The position numbers were made by a program, and so were the translations under genes. A stretch of DNA of 24,264 bases from Escherichia phage EP-M-A: sequence record OR992643; one strand, written 5' to 3'. The notes under the pieces are model-generated. The model was not told the DNA's origin. It saw only the letters and a program-made list of their open reading frames with translations, and did not search any database. Shown piece after piece: positions 1-23,095 of this stretch; the stretch's first letter is position 1, and every line of letters begins with the position of its first letter.

Positions 1-87
1 GATTTCACCCATTACATCTACGACTTGTAACTGCTGCCGTAGTTGGTTAATCAGGTACTCGAATACTTCGTTTTTGTTACTCATCAT
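1..87 (-). CDS. hypothetical protein, 5' part only (runs off the left edge); begins MMSNKNEVFEYLINQLRQQLQVVDVMGEI
   Basis: ATG-ATG at 87..82 on the minus strand with a GGAGG Shine-Dalgarno (plus 94-98) upstream; frame open to the window edge; start overlaps the stop of the upstream gene by 11 nt. Confidence 0.45.
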   Translation of the reverse strand, partial: MMSNKNEVFEYLINQLRQQLQVVDVMGEI

Positions 88-295
88 CCGGTTCCTCCCC
101 GTTATATTCTTCAAACACAAAGGCATCGTCTGCGGATAACGCCCATCGACCATACCCGGTGTAATAGACGTCAAGTTCAGTGCCGTTGTCGTCTATTATG
201 TAGCATCGACTCTCGTCGCTGTCTTCTTTGATGTGGTACAGGTCGTTTTTAGCCAGCGCCCAGTAACCATCGTAGGATTTGCATTCCAGGAACAT
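77..295 (-). CDS. hypothetical small acidic protein, 72 aa
   Basis: ORF from the track; AGGAG Shine-Dalgarno just upstream of the ATG at 295; sits downstream of minus-strand promoter A. Confidence 0.6.
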   Translation of the reverse strand: MFLECKSYDGYWALAKNDLYHIKEDSDESRCYIIDDNGTELDVYYTGYGRWALSADDAFVFEEYNGEEPDDE

Positions 296-325
296 CTCTG
301 TCTCTCCTATCGTCTGTGTAAATGA

Positions 326-354
326 ATAGTAGTCTATTCTATCCCAGTGTGCAA
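326..354 (-). promoter_or_regulatory. sigma70-like promoter (-35 TTGCAC, 17 nt spacer, -10 TACTAT) containing the palindrome GAATAG-N4-CTATTC
   Basis: Read on the minus strand: TTGCAC = plus 349-354, TACTAT = plus 326-331; palindrome at 324-339; about 25 nt upstream of the ATG at 295. Confidence 0.55.
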
Positions 355-361
355 GTAAATT

Positions 362-535
362 TTATTGGTGTGTTATTGAATCGATGAACGCCAGTAAACC
401 CCGTTCCGCCTCTGCTTCTCTTTCTTCAAGCGACCAGGTAGCGGATTCCTCTGTTGCCGGTGCTAAATCGGTTTTTACATCCATCATTGTGTCGATTAAC
501 GCGATTAGTCGTTCAGCCTGTTCTTTAGTAATCAT
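362..535 (-). CDS. hypothetical protein, 57 aa (MITKEQAERLIALIDTMMDVKTDLAPATEESATWSLEEREAEAERGLLAFIDSITHQ); absent from the ORF track because under 60 aa
   Basis: Hand translation of the minus strand; AGGAG about 8 nt upstream of the ATG at 535; protein-like composition; the overlapping plus ORF 384..596 is low-complexity. Confidence 0.5.
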   Translation of the reverse strand: MITKEQAERLIALIDTMMDVKTDLAPATEESATWSLEEREAEAERGLLAFIDSITHQ

Positions 536-659
536 TGTTGCATCTCCTGCAATAGTCGCTTCGATTGTTGCATTTGGTGAAATAGAACAAAAATGAGAAA
601 AATGATACGCTGCTGTGTAGCAGCGTAAGTCACTCAGTAAAATCCCAAACTATTGAACA

Positions 660-839
660 TCACACTTCCGGCGGCTCGGGTAACGACATCCAGTGGGTCA
701 CCCCGGCACACTTAACATATTCATCACAGACAAAGTCACCGTTGTATCTTGCTATATAGCAGTACCCGGCGCGGACATAGACAATGACATACTCCCCATA
801 TTTAGGCATCTGCTCACTGCACTCAACCCACTTACTCAT
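660..839 (-). CDS. hypothetical protein, 59 aa, ending ...GVTHWMSLPEPPEV (resembles the C-terminal W-x-LPEPP signature of DUF551-type phage proteins)
   Basis: Hand translation; GAGGTGA Shine-Dalgarno directly upstream of the ATG at 839; its start context overlaps the stop of the upstream gene 843..986. Family assignment is from memory. Confidence 0.5.
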   Translation of the reverse strand: MSKWVECSEQMPKYGEYVIVYVRAGYCYIARYNGDFVCDEYVKCAGVTHWMSLPEPPEV

Positions 840-842
840 ATC

Positions 843-986
843 TCACCTCGTATTCATCACAGCTTGCACACCAGCTTTCCACGCCCGCCACGCGAGACGC
901 GTCTTAACGTTAAGGTACTCTTTCTTCGAACCCTTGTTAATCGGCAAACCCTCGACGATGGCCCACCGTTCAAATGCTTCTCTCAT
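843..986 (-). CDS. hypothetical protein, 47 aa (MREAFERWAIVEGLPINKGSKKEYLNVKTRLAWRAWKAGVQAVMNTR)
   Basis: Hand translation; its TGA stop lies inside the GAGGTGAGATATG start context of the next gene, a translational-coupling arrangement. Confidence 0.45.
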   Translation of the reverse strand: MREAFERWAIVEGLPINKGSKKEYLNVKTRLAWRAWKAGVQAVMNTR

Positions 987-1019
987 ACCAACCCCCGCAC
1001 CACATAAACGGTTAAAATA

Positions 1020-1319
1020 TTACTTAACACGGCAACCTCCCTCAGAGTCGTCGGCACGAGCATCATGATTCGATGCCGTTCGTATAAACAGCTTACCTTT
1101 GCGCTGTAACAAATCCATTGTCACGGCGCCAGCCCCTGACTTATTAGGGCGACGCAGCCGGCTAAAATTCCATACCCGGGCCTTTGTTACATCCCGGGCG
1201 TTACATACCCACAAAGCACCATTTTCTCTTAGTTCCAGTAAATCAGAAATGTTGAAATTATTTACTGGGATAAACCCGCTAATGAACTGGCGTTCGCATT
1301 GAGGTAATTCTTCCATCAC
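1020..1319 (-). CDS. hypothetical protein, 99 aa
   Basis: ORF from the track; ATGA start/stop overlap with the upstream gene 1316..1501; purine-rich GGGGTGA upstream of the start. Confidence 0.55.
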   Translation of the reverse strand: MMEELPQCERQFISGFIPVNNFNISDLLELRENGALWVCNARDVTKARVWNFSRLRRPNKSGAGAVTMDLLQRKGKLFIRTASNHDARADDSEGGCRVK

Positions 1320-1501
1320 TTCACCCCTTTGAATTTAAAATTGTTGCCGATGAGTTTTATCTCGTCCCCGAAGCACCACTTACCGAAACGCTGGTTAGGT
1401 GTACGGATGTAGTACATCCCGTTAACCTTATTTGAAATTCGTTCGATAGCACCGTAATAACCGTAATCGTTTACTTTAACCAACTGACCCTTCTTAAACA
1501 T
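1316..1501 (-). CDS. hypothetical protein, 61 aa
   Basis: ORF from the track; GAGGAG Shine-Dalgarno 9 nt upstream of the ATG at 1501; first gene downstream of minus-strand promoter B. Confidence 0.6.
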   Translation of the reverse strand: MFKKGQLVKVNDYGYYGAIERISNKVNGMYYIRTPNQRFGKWCFGDEIKLIGNNFKFKGVK

Positions 1502-1536
1502 AACCCCTCGCTCCTCTGTCTCGTTTCGATAAGTGA

Positions 1537-1565
1537 ATAGTAACCTATTATGTTGGGGTGTGCAA
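1537..1565 (-). promoter_or_regulatory. sigma70-like promoter (-35 TTGCAC, 17 nt spacer, -10 TACTAT) with palindrome GAATAG-taac-CTATTA at 1535-1550
   Basis: Same TTGCAC-N17-TACTATTCA architecture as the promoter at 326-354; TTGCAC = plus 1560-1565, TACTAT = plus 1537-1542; drives the leftward small-gene operon. Confidence 0.55.
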
Positions 1566-1637
1566 GAGAATAGTTACGTTGCCGTTGTGATTCTTTAGGG
1601 AAGGTTGTGCCTTTATTCTTATTACTTGGTAACTAAA

Positions 1638-1658
1638 GGGCAGGCCTTAAGCCTGCCC
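1638..1658. other. perfect 8 bp GC-rich hairpin GGGCAGGC-cttaa-GCCTGCCC in the non-coding region
   Basis: Inverted repeat read directly; on the minus strand it is followed by a T-rich run (TTTAGTT). Possible insulator/terminator or RNA element. Confidence 0.4.
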
Positions 1659-1935
1659 GATAATCGTTACATTTTTACGGTTGCGAATCTACGGCACATT
1701 AAGAAAATCAGATACTTAAGAGATATGCTGCCGGTGAGAATAGAGCTTGCCCAGGGCAACCGGAGATACTTAGGAAGGAAAGTTACGATAATTCTCGTGT
1801 TCAGTAAGCCTGTGTTTAACCCTTTGCTTGACGCACGGGTTAAACATTCTTACAAGGTGAACAGGAATCAAAGTAACTAAGATATAGAAGCACCTTAAAC
1901 GAAGATTTTCATAATGTCAATAGGTGCGATTATGT

Positions 1936-1964
1936 TTGATTTCCCATTATTCGCAATGTATACT
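1936..1964 (+). promoter_or_regulatory. sigma70-like promoter (-35 TTGATT, 17 nt spacer, -10 TATACT) for the rightward operon
   Basis: Hexamers and spacing read directly; about 30 nt upstream of the ATG at 1997; lacks the GAATAG palindrome. Confidence 0.45.
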
Positions 1965-1996
1965 TGGTTCCGTTAACTGATAATGAGGGGTTGAGA

Positions 1997-2167
1997 ATGA
2001 CGCAGAATGAAGTAGCTGAGCGTATCGGGGTTACTCGTCGCACGCTGAATAACTGGTTAAAGAGCGGGAAGTTCCCGGATTGTTGTATTCGCATTATGGG
2101 CCGCCGGCAGCCAGGTACGTTTGACCGGGAGAAAGTGGAAGCGTGGATTAAGGAGAACGTGAAATGA
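1997..2167 (+). CDS. small HTH DNA-binding protein (AlpA/excisionase-like fold), 56 aa
   Basis: MTQNEVAERIGVTRRTLNNWLKSGKFP is a typical helix-turn-helix; GAGGGG Shine-Dalgarno 8 nt upstream of the ATG at 1997. The track ORF starts at a TTG at 1964, judged less likely. Confidence 0.6.
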   Translation: MTQNEVAERIGVTRRTLNNWLKSGKFPDCCIRIMGRRQPGTFDREKVEAWIKENVK

Positions 2168-2397
2168 CTGAGTTCCAGTCACGCGTATTTACGGCGGTCG
2201 TCTCATTAACACGTAAAAAAGGGTCGTGCAGCGTTATGGACTTGCGCCGTAGTTATTTTAAGTACTATAGTTCCGCCGTTATTGAAGGGTCGTTGAAGGT
2301 GCTGGTTAAATCCGGTGTCGTGAAAAATGTTGGCGGGAAATATAGTGCCGTTGCTGAAGTTCGCGGAATGACCGCTACTTTAGAGGACCTGGAATAA
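2164..2397 (+). CDS. hypothetical protein, 77 aa, ending ...TATLEDLE
   Basis: ATGA overlap with the preceding gene; acidic C-terminal EDLE tail as on the primase-helicase and nuclease. Confidence 0.55.
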   Translation: MTEFQSRVFTAVVSLTRKKGSCSVMDLRRSYFKYYSSAVIEGSLKVLVKSGVVKNVGGKYSAVAEVRGMTATLEDLE

Positions 2398-2456
2398 AAG
2401 AAAGCCCCGACGCGGTGAACGCCGAGGCCAAATTACTTGCTGAAGGAATATACAAC

Positions 2457-4708: not shown

Positions 4709-4728
4709 AAAGGGGCGTTAAGCCCCTT
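4709..4728. terminator. bidirectional hairpin AAGGGGC-gttaa-GCCCCTT between convergent genes
   Basis: Inverted repeat read directly between the primase-helicase stop (4700) and the XRE regulator stop (4718). Confidence 0.5.
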
Positions 4729-4933
4729 CACCGAACGCCAGCCACTTGGCGTCTACTTGCAGCACTTCCGCCAGTTTAAACAGCGTTGCCGGGCGGACAT
4801 CCTGAGTTACCCCAAGGGCCAGCTGGTTAATTGCACCCTGGGAAACGCCGGTTAGTACAGCCAGACGGCGCTGGGAGATTCCAAGTTCTTTGCGGCGTTG
4901 TTCTACACGGATGCCTAGTTCAGATGGTTGCAT
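4718..4933 (-). CDS. XRE-family (Cro/CI-type) helix-turn-helix transcriptional regulator, 71 aa
   Basis: LGISQRRLAVLTGVSQGAINQLALG is a canonical HTH_3 motif; GGAG Shine-Dalgarno upstream of the ATG at 4933; divergent from the gene at 5058 with two palindromic operator-like sites between them. Confidence 0.8.
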   Translation of the reverse strand: MQPSELGIRVEQRRKELGISQRRLAVLTGVSQGAINQLALGVTQDVRPATLFKLAEVLQVDAKWLAFGEGA

Positions 4934-4962
4934 GTCAATTACTCCTTAGTTAGTTGATATGT

Positions 4963-4978
4963 GAATAGTACCATATTA
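4963..4978. promoter_or_regulatory. operator-like palindrome GAATAG-tacc-ATATTA overlapping the -10 region (TACTAT on the minus strand) of the XRE gene
   Basis: Imperfect copy of the GAATAG-N4-CTATTA palindrome that recurs in about seven promoters in this window. Confidence 0.5.
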
Positions 4979-22857: not shown

Positions 22858-22875
22858 TATAATAGGGTACTATTC
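22858..22875. promoter_or_regulatory. divergent control region: consensus -10 TATAAT (22858-22863) overlapping palindrome AATAG-ggta-CTATTC (22861-22875)
   Basis: Palindrome copy between the leftward tail operon and the rightward Imm gene; leader motif ACACCAACAAT as after the 11220 promoter. Orientation and -35 are ambiguous. Confidence 0.45.
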
Positions 22876-22903
22876 ACTTACACCAACAATGAAGGGGTTT
22901 AAA

Positions 22904-23095
22904 ATGTCCAGTTTACCAGTTTCCTTAATTCTGTTTGCACTGCTCGCTTATTTCGCGCCTTTCCTGGTTGCGTACTTCCGTAACCATAAAGCGAAGTTGG
23001 CGATATTCATGGCTAATCTGTTTCTTGGCTGGGTTCTGCTGCCGTGGGTATTTATTTTAATCTGGGCTTGCAACTCGAACGTGAAAGAGAAGTAG
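22904..23095 (+). CDS. small membrane protein resembling superinfection immunity (Imm-type) proteins, 63 aa
   Basis: Two hydrophobic segments and the pattern YFAPFLVAYFRNH...NLFLGWVLLPWVFILIWA; GAAGGGG Shine-Dalgarno 6 nt upstream of ATG 22904 (the track ORF starts at 22889). Family assignment is from memory. Confidence 0.55.
   Translation: MSSLPVSLILFALLAYFAPFLVAYFRNHKAKLAIFMANLFLGWVLLPWVFILIWACNSNVKEK

What the first reader, a model, noticed from the sequence alone, without database searches (positions are those of the whole stretch)
1..1501. Dense leftward cluster of tiny genes, several below the 60-aa ORF cutoff
At least seven minus-strand genes of 47-99 aa are packed with overlapping stop/start codons and purine-rich ribosome-binding sites. 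Three (362-535, 660-839, 843-986) are invisible in the ORF track, and the longer plus-strand ORFs over the same DNA are low-complexity antisense artefacts. One ends in the W-x-LPEPP signature of DUF551-type proteins. Such early clusters typically encode host takeover and anti-defence factors.
Basis: seen in the sequence. Interest (0 to 1): 0.4.

Follow-up and report, generated by a model that had tools for sequence, protein, structure and literature searches.

The report
Small accessory-gene cluster of a Kagunavirus
The region really does hold a tight row of very small phage genes on the reverse strand, but the same genes are already annotated as hypothetical proteins in related E. coli phages, so it is an ordinary, function-unknown accessory region.

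The parts
1537..1565 (-). Promoter-like site P1: TTGCAC (1565-1560), 17-nt spacer, TACTAT (1542-1537). The 5' UTR is 1502-1536 with SD GAGGAG/GAGGGG.
   Evidence: 2 matches in the window, 0.02 expected; it is one arm of a 51-nt repeat shared with P2; conserved in 8 Kagunavirus loci; the same motif was found by PHIRE in phage Golestan 'before ORF54'.
1316..1501 (-). g1, 61 aa, basic (pI 9.9), PHROG 12538, with a weak SH3-like signal. Its termini are conserved (MFKKGQLVK ... LIGNNFKFKG) and its middle is hypervariable.
   Evidence: intact homologues at 35-48% identity in 9 of 9 Kagunavirus loci; codon score +0.46 bits per codon.
1020..1316 (-). g2, 98 aa (99 from GTG 1319), a clade-restricted ORFan. 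The core is about 81 aa. The C-terminal 17-19 aa (TASNHDARADDSEGGCRVK) is encoded by a conserved junction block.
   Evidence: variable sites by codon position 11/8/31; 18 homologue clusters, most 81-85 aa, and the same tail also sits on an unrelated protein, P0018; the tail is disordered in the AF2 model.
1030..1082 (-). Conserved junction linker AACGGCATCGAATCATGATGCTCGTGCCGACGACTCTGAGGGAGGTTGCCGTG. It supplies the strong SD GAGGGAGG and the start codon for whatever gene follows.
   Evidence: near-identical in 9 Kagunavirus loci that have different genes on either side; no significant RNA structure (z -0.2).
983..1030 (-). Micro-ORF: GTG start, 15 aa (MLSNILTVYVVRGLV), with its stop overlapping the g3 start as ATGA. 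It is an in-frame 24-nt-shorter version of a 23-aa hydrophobic peptide found in relatives (MNNYQFILIVIAVCVVHALWGLV).
   Evidence: four relatives keep an intact 23-codon ORF with synonymous and conservative changes; its codon score is negative. Translation is not shown.
843..986 (-). g3, 47 aa, basic (pI 10.6), PHROG 15836. It is the best conserved gene of the cluster.
   Evidence: E 1e-34; 85-96% identity in 9 of 9 loci; codon positions 7/9/17; 41 homologue clusters of 38-72 aa, with precomputed Pfam PF26207.1 and no fusions.
660..839 (-). g4, 59 aa, a DUF551 protein ending in THWMSLPEPPEV.
   Evidence: PF04448, E 1.2e-13, 52.1 bits against a cut-off of 22, full-length match; homologues at 32-41% identity in 8 loci, with conserved termini.
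590..627 (-). Intrinsic terminator: 9-bp stem ACGCUGCU(N4)AGCAGCGU at 627-606, followed by UCAUUUUUCUCAUUUU.
   Evidence: dG -17.7 kcal/mol, z -5.3, 0 of 200 shuffles fold as well; the stem is invariant and the loop varies (ACAC or GAGT) across Kaguna- and Jerseyviruses.
536..589 (-). Conserved leader of g5. It includes a 22-nt direct repeat (..ATGCAACAAT twice) and ACTATTGCAGGAGATGCAACA before the ATG.
   Evidence: the block 516-695 is the part of 1-1600 most widely conserved among 446 Guernseyvirinae records, whatever gene follows it. The 33-aa ORF at 532-633 has stops in L010 and L011.
362..535 (-). g5, 57 aa, acidic (pI 4.3), helical, a member of DUF7438.
   Evidence: PF24219, E 3.9e-9, 37.2 bits against a cut-off of 25. 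PHROG 653; codon positions 10/8/18, and a 38%-identical homologue in Jerseyviruses.
296..361 (-). P2 cassette: an A/T-rich tract, TTGCAC (354-349), 17-nt spacer, TACTAT (331-326), a 5' UTR and SD AGGAGAG.
   Evidence: the roughly 75-nt cassette is present in all 9 Kagunavirus loci, in front of 8 different genes. PHIRE motif 'before ORF59' in Golestan.
77..295 (-). g6, 72 aa, very acidic (20 D/E, pI 4.1), predicted all-beta. It belongs to a very narrow ORFan family and may share the Gp54(Bas11) six-stranded barrel fold.
1..84 (-). 5' end of g7 (MSNKNEVFEYLINQLRQQ...), cut by the contig end. It is 236-237 aa in the identical phage EP-B-K_E2.
   Evidence: the N-terminal 19 aa are conserved in 9 loci and the rest varies. 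Only sub-threshold coiled-coil Pfam hits were found.

Best explanation
Window 1-1501 is the promoter-proximal part of the leftward accessory arm of a virulent Kagunavirus (EP-M-A / EP-B-K_E2). It lies between the divergent control region next to the replication genes and the lysis cassette.

Shown:
- Six complete genes and one truncated gene are read on the minus strand, each from its own Shine-Dalgarno site.
- The row is cut into three units. P1 (TTGCAC-17-TACTAT) serves g1, g2, a micro-ORF, g3 and g4 (DUF551). A strong intrinsic terminator follows. A conserved leader then precedes g5 (DUF7438). A second promoter cassette, P2, serves g6, g7 and the genes beyond.
- The genes are mosaic cassettes. 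Relatives share nearly identical junction blocks (promoter-UTR-SD cassettes, a 52-nt linker, and the first or last 10-20 codons of genes), while the gene bodies between them are swapped or hypervariable.

Inferred:
- Host sigma-70 RNA polymerase uses these promoters without phage factors, so the products appear early.
- The terminator lowers transcription into g5, which is then read by read-through.
- The products are small soluble binders (basic g1-g3, acidic g4-g6) that are dispensable for growth and modulate host or defence proteins, in the way of lambda ea/exo-xis proteins or Gp54 of Bas11.

No specific target can be named.
For: Identity and context:
- The region is 100% identical to EP-B-K_E2, and relatives are Kagunavirus with leftward CDSs annotated here.

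Coding on the minus strand:
- 6 SD-preceded ORFs cover 80% of the strand, against a maximum of 3 ORFs and 45% coverage in 2000 shuffles.
- Codon scores are positive for all minus genes and negative for the plus ORFs except p70.
- Third-position excess is seen in g2, g3, g5 and g6.
- Intact protein homologues exist, and plus ORFs carry stops.
- Pfam DUF551 and DUF7438 score above their gathering cut-offs, and PHROGs match g1, g3, g4 and g5.

Transcription signals:
- The motif occurs twice where 0.02 is expected.
- Its -10/discriminator TACTATTCAYTTA occurs 4 times in the window, also before Imm_superinfect and HTH_3 genes.
- It occurs 4 times in the Bas73 genome where 0.05 is expected.
- PHIRE independently reported it in phage Golestan.
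- The terminator has dG -17.7 and z -5.3, with an invariant stem.

Possible function:
- Gp54 is a non-essential 66-aa protein in a similar small-gene row.
- The HTH gene beside the divergent region is early in Kagunavirus K1B4.
Against: - No transcript, TSS or protein data exist for these genes.
- P1 and P2 match the sigma-70 consensus at only 7 of 12 positions and were missed by the consensus scan.
- No promoter was found between the terminator and g5.
- The K1B4 RNA-seq study classes only 4 genes as early and puts the Imm-like gene, which has the same promoter class here, as late. Its sampling over 120 min is coarse.
- No product matches any known defence, anti-defence or solved protein by sequence.
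- The g6-Gp54 link rests on a pLDDT-62 model and has no sequence support: BLASTP E 21, hhalign probability 1.3%, and no bridging sequence in an exhaustive HMM search.
- The g2 model is uninformative.
- The same strand continues into holin and endolysin, so part of the arm could be delayed or late.
Confidence: 0.6

Rival explanations
1. The cluster belongs functionally to the delayed or late leftward lysis arm. It would be co-transcribed with the downstream holin and endolysin, and its products would tune lysis timing, replication or morphogenesis rather than host takeover or anti-defence.
For: All genes from the divergent region to the endolysin lie on one strand, in relatives and in EP-B-K_E2. 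The K1B4 RNA-seq study found only 4 early genes and 42 'middle' ones. DUF551 also occurs in YfdS, in a prophage cluster that affects DnaA-dependent initiation.
Against: A strong terminator and separate promoter cassettes partition the arm. The promoter class also serves Imm_superinfect and an XRE regulator, not structural or lysis genes. The genes are freely swapped or absent among relatives, which is unlike core lysis functions.
Confidence: 0.2
2. Several of the ORFs are decaying or neutral remnants kept open by chance between conserved junction blocks, and only some (g3, g4, g5) are functional genes.
For: The g2 tail is junction-encoded and disordered. The micro-ORF is an internally deleted version of a 23-aa peptide. 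The g6 homologue in phiWAO78-1 carries an in-frame stop. g2 and g6 occur in very few phages. The g2 codon score is only +0.08.
Against: g2 and g6 show clear third-position bias (11/8/31 and 11/4/23) and an excess of synonymous changes. g6 has the best codon score of all at +0.54, and both genes have good SD sites. Their homologues are intact in nearly all carriers.
Confidence: 0.12
3. The longer plus-strand ORFs (384-596, 693-1007, 784-1068, 1099-1302) are the real genes and the minus frames are their shadows.
For: SZH-1 annotates the 384-596 equivalent on the plus strand. p67 (1099-1302) shows third-position bias of 4/5/21 and has no stops in two relatives. p70 has a slightly positive codon score of +0.07.
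Against: p62, p94 and p104 have stops in relatives. p67 shares its third positions with g2 and is less conserved (89.6% against 94.8%). The plus ORFs have no SD sites, with only a loose GGTG before p70, and no PHROG hits. Pfam families match the minus frames.
Confidence: 0.03

Closest known systems
Annotated small-gene rows of other Kagunaviruses: phiSD1 gp27-gp34, Bas73_0056-0064, SZH-1 URG18157-18164, and Golestan ORF54-ORF6x with PHIRE promoters
   Same: Same position, strand and junction blocks. g1, g3, g4, g5 and g7 all have homologues there, annotated as hypothetical or DUF551 proteins. The promoter motifs before ORF54 and ORF59 of Golestan equal P1 and P2.
   Different: Gene content differs phage by phage. 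g2 is full length only in NTEC3-like phages. g6 occurs in 17 of about 450 related records. The window's micro-ORF is shortened. The deposited EP-B-K_E2 record is unannotated.
Phage lambda leftward early accessory region (exo-xis / ea genes, e.g. Ea22)
   Same: Both are rows of small, non-essential, mosaic genes transcribed away from a divergent early control region. DUF551 is a portable domain there too, in the Ea22 V2 variant and in YfdS. g7 has a conserved N-terminus, a coiled coil and a variable C-terminus, which is reminiscent of the Ea22 architecture.
   Different: This is a virulent siphovirus with no repressor/N antitermination circuit identified. No sequence homology to Ea22 was detected. 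Timing has not been measured.
Gp54 of phage Bas11 (PDB 9AXB), the second trigger of the CapRelSJ46 defence protein
   Different: No significant sequence similarity was found. The g6 model is low confidence (pLDDT 62). g6 is far more acidic. Neither protein has a known function. CapRel activation is specific even among close Gp54 homologues.
Early small-gene clusters of virulent coliphages in general (T7 class I, T4 and T5 pre-early genes). This comparison rests on general knowledge.
   Same: Dense small ORFs with their own SD sites, host-type promoters, high turnover between relatives, and mostly unknown function.
   Different: Those clusters have experimentally shown timing and several proven host-shutoff or anti-restriction proteins. 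Nothing comparable has been shown here.

Membership tests
DUF551 (Pfam PF04448), tested on g4 | Full-length match to the family HMM above the gathering score | tested here: met
   E 1.2e-13, 52.1 bits against a cut-off of 22. Residues 3-58 match profile positions 1-68 of 68.
DUF551 (Pfam PF04448), tested on g4 | N-terminal W-[IV]-x-C/x-E..P motif and C-terminal W-x-x-LPEPP motif | tested here: met
   KWVECSEQMP ... THWMSLPEPPEV. The same termini occur in 8 relatives, with variable middles.
DUF7438 (Pfam PF24219), tested on g5 | Match above the gathering score | tested here: met
   E 3.9e-9, 37.2 bits against a cut-off of 25, positions 1-57 of 57. PHROG 653 also matches at E 2.2e-12.
Gp54(Bas11)-like six-stranded beta-barrel, tested on g6 | The same six-stranded barrel fold | tested here: inconclusive
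Gp54(Bas11)-like six-stranded beta-barrel, tested on g6 | Detectable sequence homology | tested here: not met
   BLASTP E 21. hhalign probability 1.3%, with only 16 columns aligned. The PDB profile search does not reach 9axb. The exhaustive HMM search finds only 5 close relatives.
Gp54(Bas11)-like six-stranded beta-barrel, tested on g6 | Binds and activates CapRelSJ46 | not testable with these tools
   This needs co-expression toxicity or binding assays. Even close Gp54 homologues fail to trigger.
Rho-independent terminator (606-627 plus U tract) | Stable G+C-rich hairpin immediately followed by a U-rich tract on the transcribed strand | tested here: met
   9-bp stem, dG -17.7 kcal/mol, z -5.3, tail UCAUUUUUCUCAUUUU. 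The stem is invariant across the subfamily. Termination in vivo was not tested.
Sigma-70 promoter (P1, P2) | -35 and -10 hexamers close to TTGACA/TATAAT with a 17 +/- 1 bp spacer, upstream of a gene | tested here: inconclusive
   TTGCAC matches 3 of 6 and TACTAT 4 of 6, with a 17-bp spacer. This is below the threshold of the consensus scan. The motif is nonetheless strongly over-represented, conserved and always intergenic upstream of genes.
Early (pre-replicative) phage genes | Transcripts appear in the first minutes of infection, independent of phage protein synthesis | not testable with these tools
   The only related dataset (K1B4, PMC12645636) annotates 57 genes and names just the adjacent HTH gene among its 4 early genes.
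Known anti-defence or defence proteins | Sequence match to a described family | tested here: not met
   There were no hits in PADLOC or NCBIfam, and no PDB sequence hit. No anti-defence library was available.

The most novel reading that the evidence does not exclude
g6 is a highly diverged member of the rare Gp54(Bas11) beta-barrel class. It sits in a plug-and-play expression socket, the conserved P2 promoter-UTR-SD cassette that carries 8 different genes in 9 phages. If so, Guernseyvirinae exchange small defence-interacting proteins (triggers or inhibitors of systems such as CapRel) through conserved junction blocks that act as recombination sockets.
Probability: 0.25. Interest if true: 0.5.

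Novelty: already known. Interest (0 to 1): 0.2.

Why it matters
The practical value is for annotation.
- The source record (EP-B-K_E2) has no annotation.
- Relatives disagree with each other. SZH-1 annotates the antisense ORF instead of the DUF7438 gene. Several records call ORFs in conserved non-coding DNA. phiSD1 labels a g2 homologue 'tape measure protein'.
- The frame-by-frame evidence given here settles which ORFs are real.

The biological value is modest. The region is a typical hypervariable accessory arm, where anti-defence or defence-trigger proteins are usually found. The g6-Gp54 resemblance gives one concrete, cheap experiment.

Tried and rejected
- IMG/VR search with g4 found only distant DUF551 loci, useless for codon analysis.
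- Rfam gave no hit in 1-2600.
- A third promoter between the terminator and g5 was sought. TTTCAC-19-GACTAT has the wrong spacing and lies too close to the ATG, so it was rejected.
- The 33-aa ORF at 532-633 was rejected as a gene because of stops in Ent1 and buks and codon positions of 9/14/9.
- The 27-aa reading of the micro-ORF from ATG 1066 has no SD. The GTG at 1030 behind GAGGGAGG is preferred.
- RNA structure was tested for the leader (z -1.3) and the 52-nt junction (z -0.2). Neither is significant.
- A Rosetta-stone link between g3 and DUF551 was sought. All 41 g3 homologue clusters are stand-alone small proteins.
- A sequence bridge from g6 to Gp54 was not found.
- The K1B4 RNA-seq supplements give gene coordinates only and no per-gene timing for the small genes.
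- RNAalifold on the conserved intergenic core found no covariation on either strand.
- There is no literature on DUF7438.
Full report
**Origin and context**

Window 1-2400 is 100% identical to Escherichia phage EP-B-K_E2 (OR992644.1, deposited without annotation). It is 90-95% identical in patches to many Kagunavirus genomes of the Guernseyvirinae. The window length, 24,264 bp, equals the EP-M-A assembly described in the same paper (PMC11605402).

In annotated relatives (phiSD1, SZH-1, Bas73, NTEC3, phiWAO78-1, ZCEC5, Ro145clw, K1ind2, RP180) the corresponding DNA carries a row of small leftward CDSs. The row starts at a roughly 490-bp divergent intergenic region. On the other side of that region lie an HTH gene, a small gene and the replicative helicase-primase. 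The leftward row ends in an HslV-like peptidase (in some phages), holins and endolysin. In EP-B-K_E2 itself the row continues past the window end with a 236-237-aa protein, three more small ORFs, and then holin and endolysin.

Yes. The minus strand holds these ORFs:
- 1316-1501 (g1, 61 aa)
- 1020-1316/1319 (g2, 98/99 aa)
- 843-986 (g3, 47 aa)
- 660-839 (g4, 59 aa)
- 362-535 (g5, 57 aa)
- 77-295 (g6, 72 aa)
- the start of g7 at position 84

All of them have purine-rich SD sequences at proper spacing. The plus ORFs do not.

Six SD-preceded ORFs of at least 47 aa cover 80% of the strand. In 2000 dinucleotide-shuffled strands the mean was 0.5 such ORFs, the maximum 3, and the maximum coverage 45%.

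A codon-usage log-odds score trained on the eight longest genes of the window is positive for every minus gene:

| Gene | Score (bits per codon) |
|---|---|
| g1 | 0.46 |
| g2 | 0.08 |
| g3 | 0.17 |
| g4 | 0.15 |
| g5 | 0.38 |
| g6 | 0.54 |
| g7 | 0.34 |

It is negative for the plus ORFs, except +0.07 for 384-596.

**Comparative evidence**

I used blastn and tblastn against 13 related loci. Variable sites fall preferentially on third codon positions of the minus frames:

| Gene | Variable sites at codon positions 1/2/3 |
|---|---|
| g2 | 11/8/31 |
| g3 | 7/9/17 |
| g5 | 10/8/18 |
| g6 | 11/4/23 |

g1 and g4 are too diverged for DNA-level periodicity. Both nonetheless have intact protein homologues, at 35-48% and 32-41% identity, in all or nearly all Kagunavirus loci. 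Their termini are conserved and their middles hypervariable.

The plus ORFs 43-231, 693-1007, 784-1068 and 1605-1880 contain stop codons in relatives. ORF 1099-1302 shares its third positions with g2 but is less conserved at the protein level (89.6% against 94.8%). None of the plus ORFs matches a PHROG.

Family matches all fall on minus frames:
- g4 is DUF551 (52.1 bits, cut-off 22).
- g5 is DUF7438 (37.2 bits, cut-off 25).
- g1, g3, g4, g5 and g7 match PHROGs of unknown function.
- g3 homologues carry the precomputed label PF26207.1.

g2 and g6 are clade-restricted. They have 18 and 8 homologue clusters, all on contigs of about 44 kb or on fragments. g6 occurs in only 17 phage records. It has only 5 representatives among 1.84 billion proteins.

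**Corrections to the picture of a single overlapping operon**

(i) A canonical intrinsic terminator lies between g4 and g5. The stem is at 627-606, with dG -17.7 kcal/mol and z -5.3, followed by UCAUUUUUCUCAUUUU. It is followed in turn by a leader that is invariant up to the ATG of whatever gene comes next.

The block 516-695 is the most widely conserved part of 1-1600 among 446 Guernseyvirinae records. It comprises the DUF551 3' end, the terminator and the leader. The 33-aa ORF inside it has stops in Jerseyviruses and is not a gene.

(ii) Two copies of TTGCAC-N17-TACTAT lie immediately upstream of g1 (1565-1537) and g6 (354-326). Only 0.02 such matches are expected, and the two sites form a 51-nt repeat at 71% identity.

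The P2 copy is part of a roughly 75-nt promoter-UTR-SD cassette. That cassette is present in all nine Kagunavirus loci, in front of eight different genes.

The -10/discriminator TACTATTCAYTTA occurs four times in the window. Besides P1 and P2, it precedes an XRE-type HTH_3 gene (4718-4933, minus strand) and an Imm_superinfect membrane protein (22904-23095, plus strand).

The TTGCRY-N16-18-TACTAT motif occurs four times in the complete Bas73 genome, where 0.05 is expected. Each copy lies upstream of a gene or a leftward gene island.

The same motif was already listed as PHIRE-predicted promoters in Kagunavirus Golestan, including 'before ORF54' and 'before ORF59' (PMC7203180 Table S4). This is not new.

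(iii) A 52-nt junction at 1030-1082 is nearly identical in nine relatives, whatever genes flank it. It supplies GAGGGAGG plus the next start codon.

In the window and in NTEC3-type phages g2 reads through this junction. That gives g2 a 17-19-aa tail, which is also found on an unrelated protein and is disordered in the model.

In four relatives the junction starts a 23-codon hydrophobic micro-ORF that ends ATGA on the next gene. The window has an in-frame, 24-nt-shorter 15-codon version at 983-1030.

(iv) The seventh gene is not tiny. It is 236-237 aa in EP-B-K_E2, with only sub-threshold coiled-coil hits.

**Mosaic structure**

DNA identity to relatives is confined to junction blocks: 28-106, 292-378, 516/532-700, 805-990, 1012-1080, 1305-1359 and 1475-2000. 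The gene bodies between these blocks are replaced or strongly diverged. This is the classic pattern of a hypervariable accessory region that exchanges cassettes by recombination at conserved boundaries.

**Function**

No product matches NCBIfam, PADLOC or any solved structure by sequence.

DUF551 is a portable domain of unknown function. It is seen in a variant of lambda-type Ea22 and in YfdS (PMC10834534 and PMC4776307).

Gp54(Bas11) is a 66-aa, non-essential protein of unknown function. It has a six-stranded barrel of rare topology and directly activates the CapRelSJ46 defence protein (PMC11578894). Its gene is the second in a small-gene row beside a divergent intergenic region.

Sequence methods do not support homology. 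The BFVD matches are weak: E 0.02-0.1 and TM 0.6-0.7, to 67-75-aa proteins of enterobacterial siphophages. I treat this as a lead, with about 50% probability for a shared fold, and not as family membership.

**Timing**

The only Kagunavirus RNA-seq study (K1B4, PMC12645636) annotates 57 genes. It names only the HTH gene next to the divergent region among its four early genes, and it does not report the small genes individually. The 'early' label therefore remains an inference. It rests on the promoter type, the position of the cluster and the company kept by the promoter class.

**Verdict**

The functional interpretation is plausible but untested.

Homologous CDSs are annotated in dozens of GenBank records and the promoter motif has been published. 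The feature is therefore already known in kind and largely in detail. The added value here is:
- a frame-by-frame validation of which ORFs are real;
- the transcription-unit map;
- the description of the junction blocks and cassettes;
- one testable structural lead for g6.

Noticed in passing
window 1604-1783 (within the divergent intergenic region 1502-1994): A roughly 180-nt non-coding core is nearly invariant across Kaguna- and Jerseyviruses: 364 records, mostly 80-95% identical, usually unannotated. It is more conserved than the flanking genes. It contains the hairpin GGGCAGGC-N5-GCCTGCCC (1638-1658, dG about -20) and GTAAC/GTTAC and AGATACTTARGA repeats. There is no Rfam hit and no covariation. 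One A-to-G change keeps pairing only on the plus strand. It could be an origin, an operator region or an ncRNA. Some Jerseyvirus records (blauehaus, pink) start inside it.
   Followed up: partly
window 516-695: The 3' end of the DUF551 gene, the terminator and the g5 leader form the block of 1-1600 that is most widely conserved across more than 400 Guernseyvirinae. The block includes the SD and ATG even when the downstream gene differs. The leader holds a 22-nt direct repeat and the palindrome TTGCA-GGAGA-TGCAA around the SD. Why it is so conserved is unexplained.
   Followed up: partly
window 983-1082; L001 2395-2502, L015 2480-2587, L017, L019: A conserved 52-nt junction linker is followed in four relatives by an intact 23-codon hydrophobic micro-ORF (MNNYQFILIVIAVCVVHALWGLV-type) that is coupled by ATGA to the next gene. 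The window has an in-frame shortened 15-codon version. Relatives annotate it from an upstream ATG that has no SD.
   Followed up: partly
window 4958-4970 (-) and 22868-22880 (+): Two further copies of the promoter -10/discriminator TACTATTCAYTTA. One precedes an XRE-type HTH_3 regulator (4718-4933, minus strand) and carries an extended -10. The other precedes an Imm_superinfect (PF14373) membrane protein (22904-23095, plus strand).
   Followed up: yes
L002 1818-2030 (+); L014 2852-3067; L003 3020-3340; L025 344-523; L001 2499-2753: Annotation problems in relatives. SZH-1 annotates the antisense ORF instead of the DUF7438 gene. NTEC3, Bas73 and Bas72 call CDSs in the conserved non-coding core, where the frames have stops in other phages. 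phiSD1 names a g2 homologue 'tail length tape measure protein' and neighbouring genes 'tolA-binding' and 'uvsX-like'.
   Followed up: partly
L015 (phiWAO78-1) 1250-1465: The g6 homologue carries an in-frame stop (ESRC*VIDD). This is either a pseudogene or a sequencing error.
   Followed up: no
window 1-84; L028 23-736: g7 is a 236-aa predicted coiled-coil protein in EP-B-K_E2. Its first 19 residues are conserved in nine phages but the rest varies from 62 to 237 aa. This layout resembles lambda Ea22, but no sequence homology was found.
   Followed up: partly
whole window: The window length (24,264 bp) equals the EP-M-A assembly of PMC11605402, yet positions 1-2400 are 100% identical to EP-B-K_E2 from the same study. 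The two isolates or assemblies may be the same phage, or may be cross-contaminated.
   Followed up: no
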